Shown: positions 1-7,751 of the stretch, one piece after another
Layout of the letters: each line of letters begins with the position of its first letter
Position numbering within the stretch: the first letter of the stretch is position 1
Source of the DNA: a virus
Lineage: Duplodnaviria > Heunggongvirae > Uroviricota > Caudoviricetes
DNA: 7,751 nucleotides
Direction: 5' to 3' (one strand)
IMG/VR virus record: IMGVR_UViG_2698536571_000012
Program-made: the position numbers and the translations under genes
The notes under the pieces: model-generated
The model's database searches: none
Seen by the model: only the letters and a program-made list of their open reading frames with translations
Told to the model about the DNA's origin: nothing

Positions 1-22
1 GGGACGGAAGTCGCTGTCGTTC

Positions 23-268
23 TCAAAATCGGTGGAGCTGCATGACAAAGTCATCGGGCATTATCTGAACATAAAACACTATCAATAAGTTGGAGTCATT
101 ACCCAGCTTCCAAGCCTTATTACATTTAATCTGAGCATCGAGAATATCATTTCTGATAGCTGGAGCGTAACCGGATACATCGCTAATATTCATTAACTCT
201 TTGCACGATAGCATAGGCGCGTTATTGCGTTCAGTGGTCACGTTACCTGCATTCTTCTTACTGGTCAC
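23..268 (-). CDS. Hypothetical protein, 3' segment of a frame-disrupted gene downstream of the tape measure gene
   Basis: Track ORF with GTG start at 268 and TGA stop at 23-25. Hand translation shows the same frame stays open with no stop up to 571 (182 codons) but has no ATG/GTG/TTG before 268. An open frame this long in AT-rich DNA is unlikely by chance, so the coding region probably extends upstream (see finding on 23-701). Confidence 0.5.
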
Positions 269-548
269 ACCACCGTCATTTGTGGTAGCCGTTTTGCCAG
301 TGGCTGCTGAAATATCAGTTTGACCTACGATTGCTTTAAAGTTAATTTCCTGAAAAGTTAGCTGGATACGAAGACCGTTAGAGATAGTAACATCTTTAGA
401 GGCTTTAAAGTTGGTAATAATGGAATCGTCAATTTTAATTCCATCTTTACAGATAACAGAAATAATCTGCTTCTGGTCACGCCAGTTTTCCAGAGTGTCA
501 ATGAAGTTTTCTACTAATTGACCCTGACGAGTTAATAATAAGCTTCCT

Positions 549-740
<192 letters not shown>

Positions 741-857
741 TCATTTTTAACCAAGCCTTTGATATATATGTATTTTCTCTGTTAAGCGTGAGCTACGTGA
801 AAAATAATTTTTGGTGTGGGTATTAACTTTGCTTTATTCACGTAGAACACCGTTAAA

Positions 858-3038
858 TCATTCTTCCTCTGGATAGCTTGAACTTAAGAGCATATCCTGC
901 GTGAACTGGTCATTAGCTGATTGATTGAAAGTAAAGAAAGATGGTTCATCTGGTCGAACGACAACTTGACCACCAAGTGAAACTTTCACTGGCTCCTGAA
1001 TACGCTTACTCAAAGCACTAATTTCATCCCTCAGACCCTGAATATCTGCACTCGTTAATGCTGAATCTTGCTTAATGTTGTTTAACTCTGGATGATTGAA
1101 TCTTGCAATATTCATTGTGGCATTGTTAAACAATTCACCCATTGAACTAAAAATTCTACTCCATCCTTCGTTAATCATATTCGGTTTATTAGGGTCACCA
1201 GAATACACGGGATTAAAGTCACTACCCACACCTACCCCAGACGGATGCATATTAGCGTTTTTGACTACTTCCTGATTCATAAAATCCAGTGCTTTCTTCA
1301 ATGCATATAAACCAAGAGTGACGCCTCTGATTTGTGGAATCATTGAAGCTAATGCTAACGCTGTTTCATAACCGTCATCAGCATAACCAATTGCAAGAGC
1401 ACTACCTACACCACCAGCTACACCTTTCAGTTTTCCACCACCTTTACCAGTAGCTACCTGACCAGCCACCTGATTAGCTCTTGTACCTAACGTTGTGATT
1501 GCTCTTGTCAGGTTCATAACCCCTGTAGTAGCACTGAATAGCGTCTTTGCAGATAACGCTATAGCAAGACCTTTGACGAAGTTGATAAAACCATCACCGA
1601 CTTCATCAAGTAGTTTTCGTTTAGTGTCATCAAGGCTGTAATAGAACTTCTTAGTCTGTAAAATCCAGCCTTCAATGGTGTTATTGAATACGCGAATATC
1701 ATCTACACCAGCTTTAAGCATGTCGATAAGTCCACCGATAGCATCACCAGCGATAGAAGAACTCATCCCCATTTCACTAAGCAGGTTACTCAGGCTGGAT
1801 AAGAAGCCGTTTAGCTCATCCTGTGAACCTGAGAAGATTTTCACCATCGTATCATCCCAATTGTTTGCTAACTTACCTAAAGCTGTCTGAGTGCTCTTAG
1901 TGACTTCAGCCCAGCCACCCGCTTTATCAATCATCAAGCCCATCTGTTTAGCGACTTTAGGGAGAGTATCAGCGGAAAGTACCTTCCCGTTTTTCATGGC
2001 TGCATCAAGCTCTGTAGCAGTCATACCCAATGCTTCAGCGAATAGCTTAAATGCACCAGCCATACGGTCACCTAACTGCCCACGTAATTCCTCAGCCTGA
2101 ATCTTGCCCTTGCTCGCCATCTGCTCAAATGCTCTCAAAATGCCGTTTAGCTCATCGTTAGAAAGCCCCATTAAGCGACTCATAGCCGTTGCATTACCAA
2201 ATAGCTCCTGTGTCTGTTCCTGTGACATAGAACCCTGAGCACCTGCTGCAAACTTAGCGTAGCTTGATAGCCCTTCAGAGATATTAAGACCTGTCTTGTC
2301 TGCTAAATTTCGAATAAATACCTCAGCTTCAGATGCTTTATCACCAAGTACAAACTTAGCGGCTCTCTGTGCGGAATCTCGTTTAAGACCTGCATTCATA
2401 ATGGCCTTGTAAGCGTTAAGAGCACCCATCACAGAGTAAAATGCACCAGATAATTTAATCGCATTGCTTGCAAGATTATTAAATGCGTCGCTTGTATTGT
2501 TAATGCTGGCGGTCTTTGTCTGTGACCTGAGTTTATTCAACGTTTCACGAAGAGATTGATTTAATTTTGCAAGTTCAGCGTTAAACTTTTCACTTCCAAT
2601 ATTACCAGCCTTACCGCTTAAGCTGTAATACTGTGCTTTAAACATTTTAGCCATCAGCGGATTAATATCACCAAGCTTAGACATATTCACGCTATGCGCT
2701 GCTGTGATTGCTCTGTTTCCGCTAATTCGTGGTTGCCTTGATTGTTTTGGAGGATTAACAGTGTCATTAAATCTGGTGGCAAACTGAAATGCTTTTGTGC
2801 TTCTTGCTCTCTGCTCAATCTTGTCAAAGGTCTTATTAAACTTCCTTTCAAGCTGCCCTAAAGAACTTGTCAGATTGCTGTCAAGTTGCTTGGTATCGAC
2901 CTTAAACGCTCTATTCAAATTGCGTTCAATTCTTTGTGCTGACTGCAAAGCTGCCTTTTCAACTCTTTGCAAGCCCTTAATAACGTTTTCACTGAAACTA
3001 AGTTCAACGATAAAACTATCAACTGTGAATTTGCTCAT
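858..3038 (-). CDS. Phage tail tape measure protein (726 aa)
   Basis: Long, largely helical protein with the conserved tape-measure motif region (...GKIQAEELRGQLGDRMAGAFKLFAEALGMTATELDAAMKNGKVLSADTLPKVAKQMG...) and a Gly-rich hydrophobic segment (GKGGGKLKGVAGGVGSALAIGYADDGY). Start ATG 3038-3036 with GAGGTG Shine-Dalgarno 8 nt upstream. By the lambda gpH rule of thumb (~0.15 nm per residue) this would set a tail of roughly 100-110 nm. Confidence 0.85.
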   Translation of the reverse strand: MSKFTVDSFIVELSFSENVIKGLQRVEKAALQSAQRIERNLNRAFKVDTKQLDSNLTSSLGQLERKFNKTFDKIEQRARSTKAFQFATRFNDTVNPPKQSRQPRISGNRAITAAHSVNMSKLGDINPLMAKMFKAQYYSLSGKAGNIGSEKFNAELAKLNQSLRETLNKLRSQTKTASINNTSDAFNNLASNAIKLSGAFYSVMGALNAYKAIMNAGLKRDSAQRAAKFVLGDKASEAEVFIRNLADKTGLNISEGLSSYAKFAAGAQGSMSQEQTQELFGNATAMSRLMGLSNDELNGILRAFEQMASKGKIQAEELRGQLGDRMAGAFKLFAEALGMTATELDAAMKNGKVLSADTLPKVAKQMGLMIDKAGGWAEVTKSTQTALGKLANNWDDTMVKIFSGSQDELNGFLSSLSNLLSEMGMSSSIAGDAIGGLIDMLKAGVDDIRVFNNTIEGWILQTKKFYYSLDDTKRKLLDEVGDGFINFVKGLAIALSAKTLFSATTGVMNLTRAITTLGTRANQVAGQVATGKGGGKLKGVAGGVGSALAIGYADDGYETALALASMIPQIRGVTLGLYALKKALDFMNQEVVKNANMHPSGVGVGSDFNPVYSGDPNKPNMINEGWSRIFSSMGELFNNATMNIARFNHPELNNIKQDSALTSADIQGLRDEISALSKRIQEPVKVSLGGQVVVRPDEPSFFTFNQSANDQFTQDMLLSSSYPEEE

Positions 3039-3070
3039 TCATGTTTCACCTCTTTAAGTGTTCATATACG

Positions 3071-3111
3071 AAAAAGGGAAAGACTACCGATATCACTCGA
3101 TAATCTCTCCC
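3071..3111 (-). terminator. Rho-independent terminator-like hairpin immediately upstream of the tape measure gene
   Basis: On the minus-strand RNA: GGGAGAGA-U-UAUCGA-[GUGAUA]-UCGGUA-G-UCUUUCCC, about 14 bp of interrupted stem with G-U wobbles, followed directly by UUUUU (plus 3071-3075). Only ~18 nt separate the U-tract from the tape measure RBS. Confidence 0.5.
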
Positions 3112-3136
3112 GTAGATTTTCACCCAACCAATCTTG

Positions 3137-3343
3137 TTACCTAACCAGATAATAATTACCATCTTCACCAACAATCTGACAATCACTTGGTAATTTATCA
3201 AGACACCACTTAGCTATTTTCCTGATTCTATTCTTTTGCTTAGAGGAGGTGAATGATTTGATTCGTTTTGGTTTGTTGGGTTGTTCTTTCAATCGTTCAC
3301 TAATTGCTTTAATAAGCTCATAGCGTTCTGTTAAATCAATCAT
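3137..3343 (-). CDS. Hypothetical small basic protein (68 aa)
   Basis: Track ORF; ATG at 3343 preceded by AAGGTGGTGGTG; TAA stop 3139-3137. Lys/Arg-rich (KEQPNKPKRIKSFTSSKQKNRIRKIAK). Sits where a tail assembly chaperone would be expected, but is not acidic and shows no overlapping -1 frame partner. Confidence 0.65.
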   Translation of the reverse strand: MIDLTERYELIKAISERLKEQPNKPKRIKSFTSSKQKNRIRKIAKWCLDKLPSDCQIVGEDGNYYLVR

Positions 3344-3367
3344 TCACCACCACCTTTTAATTATTAA

Positions 3368-4078
3368 TTAAATAGCCTTTGCATATTTGCTAGAAATCTT
3401 CGTAAGCTGCTCAATATCAGCCTGCATAGCAATCTTCTTAGCATCTTCATATTCTTTCACAAGCTCTTTCATAGCCTGAAGCTCTCTTGAGAGATACAAC
3501 TTAACATTATCAAGTTGCTTGTTACGTGATGCCAAGATGTTCTGTCTAGCAATTTCAGCGAGTTCTTCATCGCTCTTATTAGTCATGTAAATAAACTGAC
3601 CAGCACCTCTTGATGCCTTAACCATCTTCACAATTCGATGTCCAGCAGGAAGACTACTAATCACGGCTGCGACGTTTTCTTGAAAAGTACCAAAACCATC
3701 ATTATCTTCGTATTGGTAATAGACAAATGGTTTCTGTGACAATTCATCCTGAATCTCAAATTCTGACGGCTCAATAGCTGATTGCATCAAGGTAACTTTG
3801 CTGTAAGCGTCATCTAATCTAAGGCGCTGTTCTTTCAGCAGTTGGTAATATTTCTTTTCAAGCTCAAGTAATGCTTCACTCTTGCAAATATCAGGCATCT
3901 CTTGAGGCTCAGGAGACACAAAGATGGTTGTTTTTGGTGACATCTTTAGCGATTGCTCAAGCTCAATACGCTTGTCATGCTCTTTACGCTGAATAGTGAT
4001 AGCTGGATGTTCAGTCTGTGGCGACCAGTCACTGAAGCTATCAATCACTTTGCCATTAATGTAAATATCATTTGTCAT
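3368..4078 (-). CDS. Hypothetical protein (236 aa) with predicted coiled-coil C-terminus
   Basis: Start reassigned to ATG 4078-4076 (MTNDIYINGK...) because GAGGA sits 6 nt upstream; the track's GTG start at 4126 has no RBS. TAA stop 3370-3368. Heptad-like C-terminal region (DEELAEIARQNILASRNKQLDNVKLYLSRELQAMKELVKEYEDAKKIAMQ). Function not recognisable by eye. Confidence 0.7.
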   Translation of the reverse strand: MTNDIYINGKVIDSFSDWSPQTEHPAITIQRKEHDKRIELEQSLKMSPKTTIFVSPEPQEMPDICKSEALLELEKKYYQLLKEQRLRLDDAYSKVTLMQSAIEPSEFEIQDELSQKPFVYYQYEDNDGFGTFQENVAAVISSLPAGHRIVKMVKASRGAGQFIYMTNKSDEELAEIARQNILASRNKQLDNVKLYLSRELQAMKELVKEYEDAKKIAMQADIEQLTKISSKYAKAI

Positions 4079-4253
4079 TGCTTTTCCTCTTCTAAGCGGA
4101 AGTGTTTCAGTTTTTAAAAAGCACACCTGACAGCCTATCTAAACTTAGAAGAGACTTAAAAGGCGGTTTGCCAAGTATGCTTTTTAAAAGCTGAATAGCC
4201 CTAGATAATTTCTTATAAAGGGCCATTCATAAGGTGAAGAAATTAAAACATCT

Positions 4254-4275
4254 AAAGGATTCAAAAAGGATTCAA
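4254..4275. repeat. Perfect tandem duplication, 2 x 11 bp (AAAGGATTCAA)
   Basis: Exact copies at 4254-4264 and 4265-4275 inside the ORF-free island. Confidence 0.9.
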
Positions 4276-4398
4276 ACGAATGAACAAGAGTACTTTTCGA
4301 GATGACCTCTCAGACTAACCTGAAAGGTCATGTAGCGAAAAGCATTGCACCTTTCAGAATAACTATCATTGATGTAGAATGATTAATAGTTTAATTCA

Positions 4399-4415
4399 GG
4401 AAGAGTTGCTCTTCC
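4399..4415. repeat. Perfect 17-bp palindrome GGAAGAG-TTG-CTCTTCC
   Basis: Arms 4399-4405 and 4409-4415 are exact reverse complements. No U-tract follows on either strand, so more likely a protein-binding dyad than a terminator. Confidence 0.85.
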
Positions 4416-4553
4416 CTATTACCATCATCTCATGCTTAAGGTTATTTGTCAACAGCTTTTTAACAGATTGGTAACATCAATTCTTATTTACCGTATTACC
4501 TACCCAGCAACCAACAAATAACCCTAAAGTCATCCAGAGAATAACGAGTGTCA

Positions 4554-4859
4554 TTACATCACCTCGCTGTAAGGGTTTAATTCATTCTGATAGGTCAAGA
4601 ATACATTCAGCTTCAATAATTGCTCAGGGCTTAAATCAAGTCGATTGCACTCTTCAATGATAAAGCGCTTATTGTATGGGTCTGTTACTTCCAGCTTGTG
4701 AACATAGTCACCAAGTTTAATTTCGTTGATTATATGCTTGTCAATATACGTTGACGCTTCAAAACAATGCATGAAATAGATATTAAAGCCCGACCTGTTC
4801 AGGTCAATCAACCAATTCATGGTTTCTTGGTCAACCATAATTTGCATTGGGTAATTCAT
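4554..4859 (-). CDS. Hypothetical protein (101 aa)
   Basis: Track ORF; ATG at 4859 with AGGAAGGA about 8 nt upstream; TAA stop 4556-4554. No recognisable motif. Confidence 0.7.
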   Translation of the reverse strand: MNYPMQIMVDQETMNWLIDLNRSGFNIYFMHCFEASTYIDKHIINEIKLGDYVHKLEVTDPYNKRFIIEECNRLDLSPEQLLKLNVFLTYQNELNPYSEVM

Positions 4860-5005
4860 TTTTAAAATCCTTCCTGTATCGCATTCTAAGACGTTTTAAC
4901 CCCTTTTTTAGACCACTTAAGGCGATTCCCTAAGTTACCCTGATTAGGGGCTTAAAAACGTTTCTGGTGCGTCTGGTAAAGCCTGAGAGATATGTTTTGC
5001 TGTTT

Positions 5006-5233
5006 TTAGCTCAAGTCTGAGACTAATAGCCCCATCTGGTGACCGTAGTCTTTTAACCAGCTTTGCTTAACCGGAGTCTTCAGAGAATAGTTAGGGGCTG
5101 ACAAGTGAAGATAGATATCATCTTTGCCGTGGATACTTCCCCATCCTTCGTATAACTCAAGCAAGTTTTCAAAATAACGAAATGCTTTATTAGTCTGAAG
5201 TTGTACTGTGATAGTTTTCATCAAGCACCCCAT
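5006..5233 (-). CDS. Hypothetical protein (75 aa; 71 aa if started at ATG 5221)
   Basis: Track ORF. The alternative ATG at 5221-5219 overlaps the upstream gene's TGA stop (TGATG, 1-nt overlap), consistent with translational coupling. Confidence 0.65.
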   Translation of the reverse strand: MGCLMKTITVQLQTNKAFRYFENLLELYEGWGSIHGKDDIYLHLSAPNYSLKTPVKQSWLKDYGHQMGLLVSDLS

Positions 5234-5442
5234 TCAGAAATAAGCTTAATTCCCTGCTCAAGCTGTTCAGGGTCGTTATAGTCGAGTATTACCAGTGGCT
5301 TTAATTCGTGTTTAAGCTGGTGGATTTGAGAGGGTTTTAATCGTTTGTTTGCTTTGAGGGTCACATCTTCAAATTCAGCATCTGCTAAATTCTGTCTGAT
5401 TAGGTGGCGGCCAAGTGTGGAATATTGGAACCTATAACACAT
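5221..5442 (-). CDS. Hypothetical protein (73 aa), middle gene of the coupled three-gene operon
   Basis: ATG 5442-5440 overlaps the TAA stop of the upstream gene (TAATG); GGAGG 4 nt upstream. TGA stop 5223-5221. Confidence 0.7.
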   Translation of the reverse strand: MCYRFQYSTLGRHLIRQNLADAEFEDVTLKANKRLKPSQIHQLKHELKPLVILDYNDPEQLEQGIKLISEWGA

Positions 5443-5732
5443 TAAACCTCCAATCTATCCGCCAGTTGATGGACCTTAGCGCTTAACACCTGAATCATTG
5501 AGCAACCTGCTACTGCGGACTGTGCTTTGAGTAGTTCCAGTTGGCCCGTTGTGATTCTGATGGCCTTAGAACCCTCTGCGACGCCCTTAACGTTATCGAA
5601 AGGGCTAAGGTTTACCGACTCTTTTAAAATCTCCCCAACAAGCGCTGTGTGCTTCATATCGGGATATTTGGCTTTGATTGCTGCCAGTCGTTCAAATGCC
5701 TCTGGCAAAAGGCGCGTAACTGTGTGAGTCAT
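5442..5732 (-). CDS. Putative ribbon-helix-helix (CopG/Arc-like) DNA-binding protein (96 aa)
   Basis: Start reassigned to ATG 5732-5730, which has AAGGAG 9 nt upstream; the track start at 5762 has no RBS. N-terminus fits an RHH pattern: beta-strand HTVTRL, helix LPEAFERLAAIKAKY, helix HTALVGEILKESV. The fold call is by eye only. Confidence 0.65.
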   Translation of the reverse strand: MTHTVTRLLPEAFERLAAIKAKYPDMKHTALVGEILKESVNLSPFDNVKGVAEGSKAIRITTGQLELLKAQSAVAGCSMIQVLSAKVHQLADRLEV

Positions 5733-5790
5733 TGTAAAAATCTCCTTAAATCTCTTACTCATACTACAATCTTAACATCTATTTAACATA

Positions 5791-5819
5791 TTGTCAGTAC
5801 CTCATTTACATGATACTAT
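5791..5819 (+). promoter_or_regulatory. Sigma70-like promoter for the small plus-strand gene
   Basis: TTGTCA (5791-5796), 17-bp spacer, TACTAT (5814-5819) with TG at 5811-5812 (extended -10). Lies ~50 nt upstream of the 5870 start codon. Confidence 0.4.
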
Positions 5820-5869
5820 GGTTGTAGGGGCTGATACAGGTGCTGTTTCCTTTCACAAAAGGAAAATTA

Positions 5870-6046
5870 ATGCATGATTTTTTCACAGCAATTATTGAAT
5901 CTCATCGTTTTAGCTCGTTGGGCTTTGCGGTATTTATTGTGCTATTGGTGTTTTGCGTTATGAATCGAGTCATTACAAAAAAGACAAAGCTTACAATTCG
6001 ACTTAAACTTCTTCGTGTTGAGATAGAGATTTCAGTAAATAAATAG
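5870..6046 (+). CDS. Small single-pass membrane protein (58 aa), candidate toxin or exclusion-type moron
   Basis: ATG 5870 with AGGA 6 nt upstream; the track's GTG start at 5840 has no RBS. Sequence MHDFFTAIIESHRFSSLGFAVFIVLLVFCVMNRVITKKTKLTIRLKLLRVEIEISVNK: one hydrophobic helix followed by a cationic tail. TAG stop 6044-6046. Confidence 0.6.
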   Translation: MHDFFTAIIESHRFSSLGFAVFIVLLVFCVMNRVITKKTKLTIRLKLLRVEIEISVNK

Positions 6047-6055
6047 CTGGTGGCC

Positions 6056-6352
6056 TTACCGGCACTTTCCCTTGATAATATTGGTGGCCCTCAGATTACC
6101 GGGGTCACCGTCTTTTAATCGTAGCTGGTGGACTGAATCCCATAAATCGTAATGATACAGCACCGCAAACTTCAAAGCGTCAATCTTTAAATCTGTCACA
6201 TCATCGACGAAATAATAATCCCTCCCTTCTTTCTTCGGTCGAATCCGGTAAACTTCCCCGTGAGTATCTTTCATCAAGTAACCTTCACGAGAAATGCTGT
6301 AACGTCTGAGTAAATAGTCACGGTATTTTCTCTCGCCATTATAAGTTTTCAT
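6056..6352 (-). CDS. Hypothetical basic protein (98 aa), translationally coupled to the replication initiator
   Basis: ATG 6352-6350 overlaps the initiator's TAA stop (TAATG); GGAGGA 8 nt upstream; TAA stop 6058-6056. Tyr/Arg/Lys-rich. Confidence 0.7.
   Translation of the reverse strand: MKTYNGERKYRDYLLRRYSISREGYLMKDTHGEVYRIRPKKEGRDYYFVDDVTDLKIDALKFAVLYHYDLWDSVHQLRLKDGDPGNLRATNIIKGKCR
6083..6116 (+). terminator. Rho-independent terminator-like hairpin for the small plus-strand gene
   Basis: Plus RNA stem GGUGGCCC (6083-6090) pairs with GGGUCACC (6102-6109), 8 bp with one G-U, 11-nt loop, then G-UCUUUU (6110-6116). It lies inside the 3' end of the convergent 98-aa gene. Confidence 0.45.
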
Positions 6353-7305
6353 TAAAACATTCCTCCACCATAAACACGTCTGACTTTAACTTTTTCTTTC
6401 TTTGGCTCGGTGTGAGTTTTCTTTTTTGGTGTAAAAGTAAAATCATCGTCACTATCATCAAAGTCATCGAGGTCACTAACCTTGTTCTTTAGCTTCGCAT
6501 TTCTGAATCTTTCTTTAATTTCTGCTTTACGCTGTTCACGTTTCAATTCCTCTTCAGGGTCTTCTTCATCATCAAGGTCAACATCCGGTAATTCATCATC
6601 AGTGGCGGGGCACTGTGTGTTTTTATGGTCACTACTAGCAATCACATCAGAGATTTTATCTTCCTTTTTAACGACCTCTTTAGCAGCTTCACTATCAAGG
6701 TCATCTAAGTCAGATGTTTTAACAGTCTCTTTAATAGCCTCTTCAATACCAAGAGAATCACATTCATGTGAATCACAGAGCGAAGCTCCCTTCTTAAAAT
6801 ATTCTTCTTCAAAGTCATCTTCTTTATTGTTATTAATAAGTTCTTTCTTGTTATTACTGTTATTATACGTGTCAAAGATTTTGACTGACTGAGTAAAAAA
6901 TTTTGACTCAGTGGGTAAAGAATTTTGACTCAGTGGGTCATCTTTCTTGACTGACTGAGTAACTTTAGACTCCAGCTTTGCCTTTCTGGCTTCCTTAGCT
7001 GTAAGCTCTGTTAAAACCTCCGGTACTTCATCAAGTGAATAAACTTTAATAACACACTGATTGCTTGCAACGTTAGTTTTCTTGATTAAACCATGTGCCT
7101 CAAGTTGTTTCATACATGCAATCACGGATGTTCTTGTGATTCCAGCATACTGACCAAGATGAGCATATGAAGGGGTATAATATTGCCCCTTATCGTGATA
7201 AAACTTTTGTTCATTCAACATGACAGTGTAAATAATACGGTCGGCAGCTTTAACGCCATTAGTCATCTGATAAATACGGTCATCAAACATGTGGAATTTT
7301 TCCAT
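6352..7305 (-). CDS. Phage replication initiator (lambda-O-like organiser) with internal origin, 317 aa
   Basis: Start reassigned to ATG 7305-7303 (MEKFHMFDD...) with AAGGAAAA RBS; the track's GTG start at 7362 adds an implausible 19-aa leader. N-terminal winged-helix-like segment (YAHLGQYAGITRTSVIACMKQLEAHGLIKK), a central linker encoded by the iterons, and a strongly acidic C-terminal tail (SDLDDLD, DVDLDDEEDPEEE, SDLDDFDDSDDDF). Confidence 0.75.
   Translation of the reverse strand: MEKFHMFDDRIYQMTNGVKAADRIIYTVMLNEQKFYHDKGQYYTPSYAHLGQYAGITRTSVIACMKQLEAHGLIKKTNVASNQCVIKVYSLDEVPEVLTELTAKEARKAKLESKVTQSVKKDDPLSQNSLPTESKFFTQSVKIFDTYNNSNNKKELINNNKEDDFEEEYFKKGASLCDSHECDSLGIEEAIKETVKTSDLDDLDSEAAKEVVKKEDKISDVIASSDHKNTQCPATDDELPDVDLDDEEDPEEELKREQRKAEIKERFRNAKLKNKVSDLDDFDDSDDDFTFTPKKKTHTEPKKEKVKVRRVYGGGMF
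6790..6870. other. AT-rich tract adjacent to the iterons (candidate DNA-unwinding element of the origin)
   Basis: About 80 bp of mostly A/T (ttcttaaaatattcttcttcaaagtcatcttctttattgttattaataagttctttcttgttattactgttattatacg) directly next to the iteron array, inside the initiator ORF. Confidence 0.55.
6879..6962. repeat. Iteron array: four 18-bp direct repeats at exact 22-bp phasing
   Basis: TTTTGACTGACTGAGTAA (6879-6896), TTTTGACTCAGTGGGTAA (6901-6918), TTTTGACTCAGTGGGTCA (6923-6940), TCTTGACTGACTGAGTAA (6945-6962), plus a degenerate copy TTTAGACTCCAG (6965-6976). Confidence 0.8.
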
Positions 7306-7458
7306 TATATTTTCCTTTTTAAAAATAAAACAAAGAAAGGGCTGACCACGTATAGTGACCAACCCCAGAGGGAGTGAATTAATTAGAAGATGGACTGATA
7401 AAGGAACTCAGAAGCCTGAGCGATTACGCGAGTATTAACAGCAAAAGGAAAAGCCTTG

Positions 7459-7488
7459 ATTGAATAAGAGGCCGTGAAAATCTGTCAA
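7459..7488 (-). promoter_or_regulatory. Candidate sigma70 promoter for the replication operon
   Basis: On the minus strand, consensus TTGACA (plus 7488-7483), 18-bp spacer, TTCAAT (plus 7464-7459). The -10 is weak (no A at position 2), so this is tentative. Confidence 0.3.
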
Positions 7489-7610
7489 TACCCTGACGCC
7501 TCCCAACGTTGTAACCTCTTAATGTTCTGAGTTCTTTTATCACCCCATATAAAAACCATAACAGATGTGATTATAAATTGCAACAATTATTTCACAGAAT
7601 AATTACTGAT

Positions 7611-7673
7611 TGGTCATTTATTGTTCACAGGGATACTTCTTAATATCTGAATCACCTATCTTGTAAATGACCA
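7611..7673. repeat. 10-bp perfect inverted repeat TGGTCATTTA / TAAATGACCA (candidate operator)
   Basis: Arms at 7611-7620 and 7664-7673, 43 bp apart, in the untranslated region upstream of the replication operon. Confidence 0.6.
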
Positions 7674-7751
7674 TATTTATGAGAATTTTAGCTCAACCTT
7701 TGAGCAATCCTGTATGACGTGCTCAGAGGCATTCTGAGAGCATCTGCAATG

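What the first reader, a model, noticed from the sequence alone, without database searches (positions are those of the whole stretch)
5006..5762. Translationally coupled three-gene operon of small proteins led by an RHH-like protein
Three ORFs of 96, 73 and 71-75 aa are chained by 1-nt stop/start overlaps (TAATG at 5440-5444, TGATG at 5219-5223), which implies fixed stoichiometry. The first has an N-terminal pattern consistent with a ribbon-helix-helix fold plus a ~50-residue C-terminal extension, the layout of RHH antitoxins and small phage repressors. The other two are unrecognisable by eye. The position, between replication and structural genes and divergent from the membrane-protein cassette, is where phages commonly carry toxin-antitoxin, anti-defence or defence cargo. 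Direct repeats TTAACAT (5772-5778 and 5783-5789, 11 bp apart) in the promoter region could be the RHH operator.
Basis: inference. Interest (0 to 1): 0.55.

Follow-up and report, generated by a model that had tools for sequence, protein, structure and literature searches.

The report
Tandem ribbon-helix-helix regulator operon
The three chained small genes are real and form the conserved control module of a small, uncharacterised phage-related island in E. coli, led by a predicted DNA-binding protein made of two fused ribbon-helix-helix units, and they do not look like a toxin-antitoxin or defence cargo.

Summary
Three minus-strand genes, A (96 aa, 5442-5732), B (73 aa, 5221-5442) and C (71 aa, 5006-5221), are joined by TAATG and TGATG overlaps. 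All three are conserved with divergent alleles.

- The two TTAACAT repeats belong to an array of four 11-bp-phased ATGTWRA boxes. The array covers two face-to-face promoters, one for A and one for a divergent 58-aa membrane protein.
- The operon is not variable cargo. In 52 of 52 related loci a B-family gene is coupled to A.
- B always travels with C (21 of 21 loci). Otherwise B carries a fused C-terminal HTH and C is absent (31 of 31 loci).
- A alleles assort freely with B types, which argues against A being a cognate antitoxin.
- B and C have no hits in Pfam, NCBIfam, PADLOC or PHROGs. B has essentially no relatives among 1.84 billion representative proteins.

The module lies in an ~11-kb serine-recombinase island between tonB and yciI. 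That island carries Felixounavirus-like tape-measure and Dit genes and may be a satellite.

Most likely A is an autorepressor and B-C is a co-adapted DNA-associated accessory pair. No function has been demonstrated.

The parts
5442..5732 (-). Gene A, 96 aa: predicted single-chain tandem ribbon-helix-helix DNA-binding protein and first gene of the operon
5221..5442 (-). Gene B, 73 aa: lineage-restricted small protein, translationally coupled to A (TAATG)
   Evidence: The divergent allele B' is 56% identical. The B-like N-terminal domain of the 128/141-aa B-HTH proteins scores hhalign E 8e-4. Exhaustive phmmer found only 4 hits. The AF2 model is low confidence and its fold hits are non-specific. 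PGAP leaves it unannotated in several genomes.
5006..5221 (-). Gene C, 71 aa: lineage-restricted small protein coupled to B (TGATG), always linked to a free-standing B
   Evidence: Allele C' is 47% identical, E 9e-25. B with C in 11 of 11 loci, B' with C' in 10 of 10, and absent with B-HTH in 31 of 31. No family or PDB sequence hits.
5772..5811 (-). Putative operator: four 7-bp boxes ATGTWRA at 11-bp phase. R1 is 5811-5805, R2 is 5800-5794 (degenerate here, GTACTGA), R3 is 5789-5783, R4 is 5778-5772.
   Evidence: It is the only phased cluster in the island. In locus L004, where A is a pseudogene, R3 and R4 carry substitutions. Binding by A is inferred, not shown.
5769..5797 (-). Promoter-like site for A-B-C: -35 CTGACA (TTGACA in nearly all relatives), 17-nt spacer, TG-extended -10 TAAGAT
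   Evidence: This is a consensus match only. The number of such matches in the region is no more than in shuffles. Position and conservation are the argument.
5791..5819 (+). Divergent promoter-like site (-35 TTGTCA, 17 nt, -10 TACTAT) whose -35 overlaps the -35 of the A promoter
   Evidence: It lies upstream of the membrane-protein ORF.
5870..6046 (+). 58-aa single-pass membrane protein with an ESHRF motif, divergent from A and always 137-138 nt from A's ATG. Three alleles exist.
   Evidence: for ORFs in 10 loci. for alleles m1, m2 and m3. One search gives GRAVY 0.74 and pI 10.2.
4554..4859 (-). Gene D, 101 aa: next gene in the same orientation, probably the fourth gene of the unit. Two alleles are 28-32% identical.
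   Evidence: No convincing terminator lies between C and D. The next promoter-like site is at 4452-4424. RHH-like by eye only; hhalign against A was negative.

Best explanation
The three genes are the front of a conserved regulatory operon, A-B-(C)-D, of an ~11-kb integrative phage-related element of Escherichia.

A is a monomeric 'pseudo-dimer': two ribbon-helix-helix units fused in one chain. I infer that several copies bind side by side, on one face of the DNA, to the four 11-bp-phased ATGTWRA boxes. Those boxes cover the overlapping -35 hexamers and the -10 of A's own promoter. Binding would therefore shut off both its own operon and the divergent small membrane-protein gene. This resembles the autoregulatory feedback of P22 Arc and the omega repressor on heptad repeats.

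B is made in step with A by translational coupling but is not allele-matched to it. B and C form a co-adapted pair, probably a complex. That pair is functionally interchangeable with a single B-domain-plus-HTH protein. This points to a DNA-associated regulatory or DNA-processing accessory role, not a toxin.

Status of each step:
- Shown by sequence: the gene structure, the coupling, conservation, allele linkage and the repeat array.
- Predicted: the RHH fold.
- Inferred: DNA binding, repression, the B-C complex and their role.
For: Fold of A:
- β-α-α, linker, β-α-α topology.
- Weak BFVD hits are to archaeal-virus RHH proteins.
- F TraY is described as an RHH dimer in one polypeptide that binds as a train of three monomers (PMC12117103).
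- Both β-strands (H3-R7, S55-T61) are invariant across homologues that are only 71% identical overall.

Operator:
- Four phased boxes are conserved in 38 of 47 loci, with variable spacers between R3 and R4.
- It is the only such cluster in the island, and 0 of 2000 simulations gave a phased triple.
- The boxes overlap both promoter-like sites.

Module:
- A B-family gene is coupled to A in 52 of 52 loci.
- B-C linkage is perfect, and C is absent whenever B carries the HTH extension.
- The extension matches HTH_28 in 5 of 5 members (best E 1.6e-4), and also HTH_23 and HTH_7.
- A clade versus B type, and B type versus D allele, are freely assorted.
Against: - Both AF2 models are low confidence (pLDDT 57.8 and 60.4).
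- A hits no RHH model in Pfam, NCBIfam or PHROGs and no PDB sequence.
- The two halves of A show no detectable similarity to each other.
- The promoter hexamers are consensus matches, no more frequent than in shuffles.
- The whole intergenic region is conserved, so conservation of the boxes alone is weak evidence. The box motif was defined after seeing the sequence.
- The perfect B-C linkage could partly reflect the lack of shared sequence at the B/C junction for recombination.
- Nothing shows what B and C do. No expression or binding data exist.
Confidence: 0.5

Rival explanations
1. Classical type II toxin-antitoxin module. A is an RHH antitoxin whose C-terminal part neutralises a small toxin, B and/or C.
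Against: - The C-terminal half of A is predicted to be a second RHH repeat, not a toxin-binding tail.
- B and C match no toxin family. The B model gave no toxin-fold hit, though it is low confidence.
- Two A clades, 71% identical, pair with every B type, with the breakpoint at the A/B junction.
- B occurs fused to an HTH in 31 of 52 loci.
- L004 has a frameshifted A with B and C intact.
Confidence: 0.05
2. Three-component system of omega-epsilon-zeta type, or a small abortive-infection or defence pair. A is only the transcriptional regulator. B and C are the functional pair, either antitoxin-toxin or sensor-effector, possibly directed against a phage.
For: B and C are perfectly co-linked and allele-matched, while A is not matched to them. 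That is the pattern expected when the regulator is separate from an interacting pair. Omega is an RHH repressor that binds 7-bp direct repeats (2bnw). The operon sits in a phage-related island.
Against: - No hit in PADLOC or the other libraries.
- About 60% of islands have no C at all but carry a B-HTH fusion instead. That is hard to reconcile with B as antitoxin and C as toxin.
- C is soluble and near-neutral, with no recognisable catalytic motif.
- B and C are found only in this island family.
Confidence: 0.15
3. TraY-like architectural role. A binds the repeat array to bend or organise DNA for a DNA transaction of the island, such as replication origin firing, excision/integration by the serine recombinases, or packaging. 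B-C or B-HTH would be specificity or directionality factors. Transcriptional repression would be secondary or absent.
For: - The best structural match is the relaxosome accessory protein TraY, which binds as a train on adjacent sites.
- The HTH fused to B is of the resolvase/transposase type (HTH_28, HTH_23, HTH_7).
- The island has two serine recombinases and a Dam methylase carrying an HTH_7.
- The array lies about 300 bp downstream of the replication-initiator operon.
Against: - No relaxase or oriT-type gene is annotated in the island.
- The array coincides precisely with the -35 and -10 elements of two divergent promoters. That is the usual place for a repressor operator.
- Seven-bp boxes at 11-bp spacing are shorter than typical initiator iterons (established knowledge).
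- The B-HTH C-terminus shows no BLASTP similarity to the island's own recombinase or Dam HTH.
Confidence: 0.2
4. B and/or C are not real genes but chance ORFs downstream of a single regulator gene.
For: PGAP does not annotate B in several complete genomes, nor B'/C' in others. There are no family hits.
Against: - Protein-level conservation persists at 47-56% identity where the DNA no longer aligns.
- pN/pS is about 0.1 for B.
- Start/stop overlaps with Shine-Dalgarno sequences are conserved in two different geometries.
- The ORFs are intact in all 21 loci of those types.
Confidence: 0.02

Closest known systems
F-plasmid TraY (single-chain double RHH, relaxosome accessory protein)
   Different: Sequence identity is 11% and there is no hit to the Pfam TraY family or any other. 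No relaxase or oriT context exists. The array here overlaps promoter elements.
P22 Arc/Mnt immI region and other phage RHH repressors
   Same: A small RHH protein is encoded as the first gene of an operon that it probably shuts off. The divergent promoters overlap and share an operator region (established knowledge of immI). Arc and single-chain Arc are among the top fold hits.
   Different: Arc is a 53-aa homodimer that binds as a tetramer to a palindromic 21-bp operator. A is a fused double unit facing four direct repeats. The downstream genes are unrelated to ant.
Omega repressor of the omega-epsilon-zeta operon (pSM19035)
   Same: An RHH regulator binds cooperatively to strings of 7-bp repeats in promoters (2bnw). 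It is the first gene of a three-gene operon, where the regulator is separate from the interacting pair.
   Different: Omega is a dimer with a single RHH. Its heptads are contiguous, with a 7-bp period rather than 11 bp. Epsilon and zeta are unrelated to B and C, and zeta is a 287-aa kinase toxin. Most islands here lack C.
AvtR and DndE (other natural tandem-RHH proteins)
   Different: AvtR is from an archaeal virus and DndE from a DNA-phosphorothioation system. There is no sequence similarity and the gene neighbourhoods differ.
RHH-antitoxin type II TA modules (RelBE, ParDE, MazEF-mt, TacAT, FitAB)
   Different: See the membership test. There is no toxin-binding tail, no recognisable toxin and no allele matching between A and its neighbours.

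Membership tests
Ribbon-helix-helix (MetJ/Arc/CopG) superfamily | β-α-α unit whose N-terminal strand pairs with a second strand to form a two-stranded antiparallel ribbon | tested here: met
Ribbon-helix-helix (MetJ/Arc/CopG) superfamily | G-x-S/T/N turn between the two helices, with the N-cap of helix 2 contacting the phosphate backbone | tested here: met
   Repeat 2 has G76-C77-S78 immediately before helix 79-93. G76 and C77 are invariant and position 78 is S or T. Repeat 1 has a variant, (K/S)-H28-(T/S).
Ribbon-helix-helix (MetJ/Arc/CopG) superfamily | Significant match to a curated RHH sequence family | tested here: not met
   No Pfam, NCBIfam or PHROG family at E<=1. The PDB profile search gave only noise.
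Ribbon-helix-helix (MetJ/Arc/CopG) superfamily | Sequence-specific binding to repeated DNA sub-sites | not testable with these tools
   Candidate sites exist: four phased ATGTWRA boxes. EMSA or footprinting is needed.
TraY-type single-chain double RHH | Two RHH repeats in one polypeptide acting as a monomeric pseudo-dimer | tested here: met
   TraY and single-chain Arc align over 74-76 residues, covering both repeats.
TraY-type single-chain double RHH | Relaxosome context (oriT, relaxase, conjugative transfer genes) and homology to TraY | tested here: not met
   No relaxase or transfer genes are annotated in two complete islands. Identity is 11% and there is no Pfam TraY hit.
Type II toxin-antitoxin with RHH antitoxin | Antitoxin made of an N-terminal DNA-binding domain plus a C-terminal toxin-neutralising segment | tested here: not met
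   The C-terminal half is predicted to be a second RHH repeat.
Type II toxin-antitoxin with RHH antitoxin | Partner belongs to a known toxin superfamily (RelE/ParE, MazF/CcdB, PIN, Doc, GNAT, zeta and others) | tested here: not met
   B and C have no hits in Pfam, NCBIfam, PADLOC or PHROGs. The fold search for B was non-specific. The fold of C was not tested.
Type II toxin-antitoxin with RHH antitoxin | Cognate pairing: antitoxin and toxin alleles co-vary | tested here: not met
   Clade A1 occurs with B, B', BH1 and BH2. Clade A2 occurs with B, BH1 and BH2. The breakpoint is at the A/B junction.
Type II toxin-antitoxin with RHH antitoxin | Toxicity of the toxin and neutralisation by the antitoxin | not testable with these tools
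   Only indirect evidence: L004 has a frameshifted A with B and C intact.
Known anti-phage defence systems (PADLOC-DB v2) | Match of any component to a defence-system protein model | tested here: not met
   No hit for A, B, C, D, the 98-aa ORF, the membrane ORF or BH.
Phage satellites (PLE-like or PICI-like), for the surrounding island | Integrase, own replication initiator, helper-related structural genes, and no capsid or terminase genes | tested here: met
   - The large serine recombinase has Resolvase, Recombinase and Zn-ribbon domains.
- A replication-initiator PHROG matches.
- TMP and a Dit-like gene are syntenic with Felixounavirus. Part of the Dit-like gene is about 92% nt identical to those phages.
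- No capsid or terminase gene is annotated.
Phage satellites (PLE-like or PICI-like), for the surrounding island | Induction, replication and packaging dependent on a helper phage | not testable with these tools
   No experimental report was found.

The most novel reading that the evidence does not exclude
The operon may be the master switch of an undescribed family of Escherichia phage satellites, or tail-interference islands, that target virulent Felixounavirus phages. That would make the family an enterobacterial counterpart of the Vibrio PLEs. In this reading the tandem-RHH protein A keeps the island silent. The co-adapted B-C pair (or B-HTH) senses or responds to the helper and triggers expression of the island's own tape-measure and Dit alleles.
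Probability: 0.15. Interest if true: 0.75.

Novelty: new variant of a known kind. Interest (0 to 1): 0.42.

Why it matters
An RHH-led autoregulated operon is a familiar design. This one has three unusual features.
- The regulator is a natural single-chain double RHH with no sequence family. Only a handful of these are known, such as TraY, AvtR and DndE.
- It faces four direct repeats that span two face-to-face promoters.
- Its coupled partners are ORFans that show a clean natural domain swap: B plus C, or B fused to an HTH.

The module is the probable control point of a compact island found in about 2% of complete E. coli genomes (128 of 5426). I found no description of that island in the literature searched. 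It carries tail genes of virulent Felixounavirus phages. Understanding the switch would be the first step toward testing whether E. coli has satellites of lytic myoviruses. Strains such as E24377A and UMNK88 carry the island, so the question is experimentally accessible.

Tried and rejected
- **Family scans.** Pfam, PHROGs, PADLOC and NCBIfam gave no hits for A, B or C. PDB sequence-profile searches with A, C, B-family and D alignments gave only noise.
- **Internal duplication of A.** hhalign of the N- and C-halves was negative. The duplication is therefore supported only by predicted structure.
- **Distant homologues.** The word-index search found only close relatives, all in Escherichia, Shigella or Citrobacter. 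Exhaustive phmmer with B gave 4 hits, one of them a probable artefact in a 2315-aa protein.
- **Fold searches.** The afdb50 library was unavailable.
- **D as an RHH relative of A.** hhalign was negative, so this is kept only as a by-eye remark.
- **B-HTH C-terminus versus the island's own HTH domains.** BLASTP against the recombinase and Dam HTH found no alignment.
- **Other searches.** Rfam gave nothing credible in the window. A and the 236-aa protein are absent from the GenBank phage set by tblastn.
- **Literature.** Searches for a described satellite or island with these features found nothing relevant.
- **The 106-aa start for A and the 75-aa start for C.** Both were rejected because they are not conserved.
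- **Circularity of island-sized metagenome contigs (about 11.7-13.6 kb).** This could not be tested because only partial contigs were held.

Full report
**1. Observation**

- A runs 5732->5442 (96 aa). An AAGGAG lies 9 nt before its ATG.
- B runs 5442->5221 (73 aa). Its ATG overlaps A's TAA, giving TAATG at 5444-5440, with GGAGG 4 nt upstream.
- C runs 5221->5006 (71 aa). Its ATG overlaps B's TGA, giving TGATG at 5223-5219.

Two longer alternative starts were rejected.
- The 106-aa start of A (ATG at 5762) is not conserved in relatives. It also coincides with the predicted transcription start.
- The 75-aa start of C is not the one shared with the divergent allele.

**2. The genes are real**

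The window belongs to a chromosomal island found in many E. coli genomes. A blastn search with 4900-5840 hit 128 of 5426 complete genomes, always on the chromosome.

The hits fell into three classes: full length; A plus the 5' part of B; and A only. In the last class the match begins exactly at the A/B junction.

Reading the loci showed that the apparently variable part is occupied by divergent alleles of the same genes.
- B' is 76 aa and 56% identical to B.
- C' is 69 aa and 47% identical to C (E 9e-25).
- Alternatively there is a 128/141-aa protein (BH). Its N-terminal ~80 residues align with B (BLASTP E 0.001; hhalign E 8e-4). Its C-terminal ~50 residues match the HTH_28, HTH_23 and HTH_7 models below their thresholds. 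All 5 of 5 members match HTH_28, with best E 1.6e-4.

pN/pS is 0.05-0.41 for A and about 0.1 for B. PGAP frequently fails to annotate B, B' and C'.

**3. Co-occurrence**

I combined E. coli genomes, one GTDB genome, four IMG/VR contigs and 40 metagenome contigs. This gave 52 loci with a readable A-B region.
- A B-family gene directly follows A in 52 of 52 loci.
- The junction GGRGG-N4-TAATG is identical in all 14 loci inspected. B'/C' are coupled through an ATGA overlap.
- B occurs with C in 11 of 11 loci, and B' with C' in 10 of 10. BH1 and BH2 occur with no C in 31 of 31.
- The two clades of A (about 71% identical) combine with all B types. B types combine with both alleles of the next gene, D. 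Membrane-protein alleles combine with both A clades.
- One odd locus (L045) has a C-like 57-aa ORF coupled directly to A, with no B.

Counts in complete genomes agree: 20 for B-C, 36 for B'-C', and 57-60 for BH1.

So A-B-(C) is a core module of the element, not cargo. B-C behaves as a matched pair. A is not matched to either.

**4. What A is**

No sequence method recognises A.

AlphaFold2 on 27 homologues gave a low-confidence model (pLDDT 57.8). Its topology is clear: strand 3-7, helices 10-22 and 28-36, a disordered linker 37-56, strand 57-61, and helices 62-75 and 79-93.

- After these come the PutA RHH domain, AvtR, DndE, MazE, NikR, AmrZ, TacA, CopG, omega, ParG and others.

TraY is described as carrying the whole RHH dimer in one polypeptide and binding as a train of monomers on adjacent sites (PMC12117103).

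Several sequence features agree with the fold. The second repeat has the canonical G-x-S turn (G76-C77-S78). Both β-strands are invariant across homologues that otherwise differ by up to 29%.

The two halves are not detectably similar in sequence.

**5. The operator and promoters**

Aligning relatives shows four boxes with an 11-bp period: ATGTAAA-tgag-ATGTTGA-caat-ATGTTAA-ataa-ATGTTAA.
- All four boxes are intact in 38 of 47 loci.
- The spacer between boxes 3 and 4 varies (ATAA, ATAG, AAAT, ATAT) while the cores stay the same.
- The window is the only locus where box 2 is GTACTGA and the -35 is CTGACA rather than TTGACA.
- It is the only phased cluster in the island. No phased triple arose in 2000 Markov simulations of the window. 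The motif was defined post hoc.

The consensus scan places two promoter-like sites here.
- A promoter, minus strand: -35 at 5797-5792, 17-nt spacer, TG-extended -10 at 5774-5769.
- Divergent promoter, plus strand: -35 at 5791-5796 and -10 at 5814-5819.

The two -35 hexamers overlap. The plus-strand promoter faces a conserved 58/61-aa single-pass membrane protein. That gene always lies 137-138 nt from A's ATG.

The boxes map as follows: box 1 abuts the plus-strand -10; box 2 covers both -35 elements; box 3 lies in the spacer; and box 4 overlaps the minus-strand -10. Occupancy by A would plausibly silence both promoters.

In L004, where A is frameshifted, boxes 3 and 4 carry substitutions. This is a single anecdote.

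**6. B and C**

Both are soluble and about 8 kDa. Neither has any family hit.

The informative evidence is comparative. B is always present. It either carries an HTH in cis or is accompanied by C in trans. This suggests that the B-C pair and the B-HTH protein do the same job, and that the job involves DNA.

**7. Context**

Two complete islands lie between tonB and yciI. Their gene order is:
- a large serine recombinase (Resolvase, Recombinase and Zn-ribbon domains);
- a Dit-like protein;
- a 726-aa tape-measure protein;
- two hypothetical proteins;
- a 428-bp gap with a strong promoter-like site;
- D, then C-B-A;
- the membrane ORF on the opposite strand;
- a 98-aa ORF;
- a replication initiator (PHROG 8102 and others);
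- a Dam methylase with an HTH_7;
- a small serine recombinase.

The TMP and Dit genes are syntenic with Felixounavirus genes such as garuso_118 and garuso_119. Window 242-677 is about 92% nt identical to these phages. The TMP as a whole is only about 30-33% aa identical.

No capsid or terminase genes are present, and no paper describing the island was found. The island looks like a satellite or tail-interference element of virulent Felixounavirus phages. That is inference only.

**8. Mechanism and rivals**

*Best explanation (0.5).* A is a single-chain double-RHH autorepressor acting on the four-box array. It controls both its own operon and the membrane-protein gene. B-C is a co-adapted, DNA-associated accessory pair, and the whole is a core regulatory module.

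*Rivals.*
- TraY-like architectural role in replication, recombination or packaging, with B-C or B-HTH as specificity factors (0.2).
- Omega-epsilon-zeta-like arrangement with B-C as an effector pair (0.15).
- Classical RHH-antitoxin TA (0.05).
- Spurious ORFs (0.02).

The TA reading fails three tested membership features: the antitoxin tail, a recognisable toxin and allele matching.

**9. Novelty**

This is an RHH-led autoregulated operon of a known kind, in an unusual form. It combines a natural tandem RHH without a sequence family, a four-box direct-repeat operator across face-to-face promoters, and ORFan partners with a natural B+C versus B-HTH swap.

The operon itself has moderate interest. 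The surrounding island is the more striking object.

Noticed in passing
window 1-7751; L001 10744-24535; L002 2611-13464: The window is part of an ~11-kb island between tonB and yciI. The island carries a large serine recombinase, a replication initiator, a Dam methylase with an HTH_7, a small serine recombinase and two tail genes. It has no capsid or terminase genes. It occurs in about 2% of complete E. coli genomes. It looks like an undescribed satellite or tail-interference element, and no paper describing it was found.
   Followed up: partly
window 242-677 and 858-3038 (-): The tape-measure gene and the Dit-like gene after it are syntenic with Felixounavirus garuso_118 and garuso_119. Part of the Dit-like gene is about 92% nt identical to many Felixounavirus phages. 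The TMP is only about 30-33% aa identical overall and has nearly the same length (726 vs 735 aa). This suggests recent exchange with virulent phages.
   Followed up: partly
window 1-133: An IS1 end (93-98% identical to IS1A/IS1B) truncates the Dit-like gene in this copy of the island. Together with the degenerate operator box 2 and the weakened -35, this copy may be decaying.
   Followed up: partly
window 5870-6046 (+): A conserved 58/61-aa single-pass membrane protein with an invariant ESHRF motif and a basic C-terminus. It has three alleles and is divergently transcribed from the A promoter at a fixed distance. It could be a holin-like, exclusion or toxic effector under A's control.
   Followed up: partly
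window 4554-4859 (-): The next gene, D (101 aa; alternative 107-aa allele only 28-32% identical), is present in nearly all loci and assorts independently of B type. By eye its C-terminus looks like a β-α-α RHH unit (KRLVIEQTNK..ISPEQFLK). hhalign against A and the PDB profile search were negative.
   Followed up: partly
window 4127-4553 (-): A 428-bp non-coding gap holds the best promoter-like site of the region (TTGACA, 17 nt, TG-GATGAT at 4452-4424). A ~300-nt leader follows before the 236-aa gene. There is no Rfam match. It could be a late promoter or an untranslated RNA.
   Followed up: no
window 6056-6352 (-): The 98-aa ORF just after the replication initiator has an HNH-like motif by eye (H-x4-KDGDP-x-N-x4-N). 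PGAP names 'HNH endonuclease' at or near the B'C' match in two related genomes, though which ORF it refers to was not checked. The pattern recalls the domesticated endonucleases of Vibrio PLEs. There was no Pfam hit at E<=1.
   Followed up: no
window 3368-4078 (-): The 236-aa protein is annotated 'transposase' by PGAP in several genomes. It has no Pfam, PHROG or NCBIfam hit and no tblastn match in the phage collection.
   Followed up: partly
L004 2043-2323; L045 1154-1327: Two natural variants stand out. L004 has a frameshifted A (and a frameshifted rep) with B and C intact and mutated operator boxes. L045 has a C-like 57-aa ORF coupled directly to A, with no B.
   Followed up: partly
L018-L020, L024, L041, L052 (metagenome contigs of 11.7-13.6 kb): Several gut-metagenome contigs carrying the module are about the size of the whole island. 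This might reflect excised or circular copies. Only partial contigs were held, so terminal overlap could not be checked.
   Followed up: no
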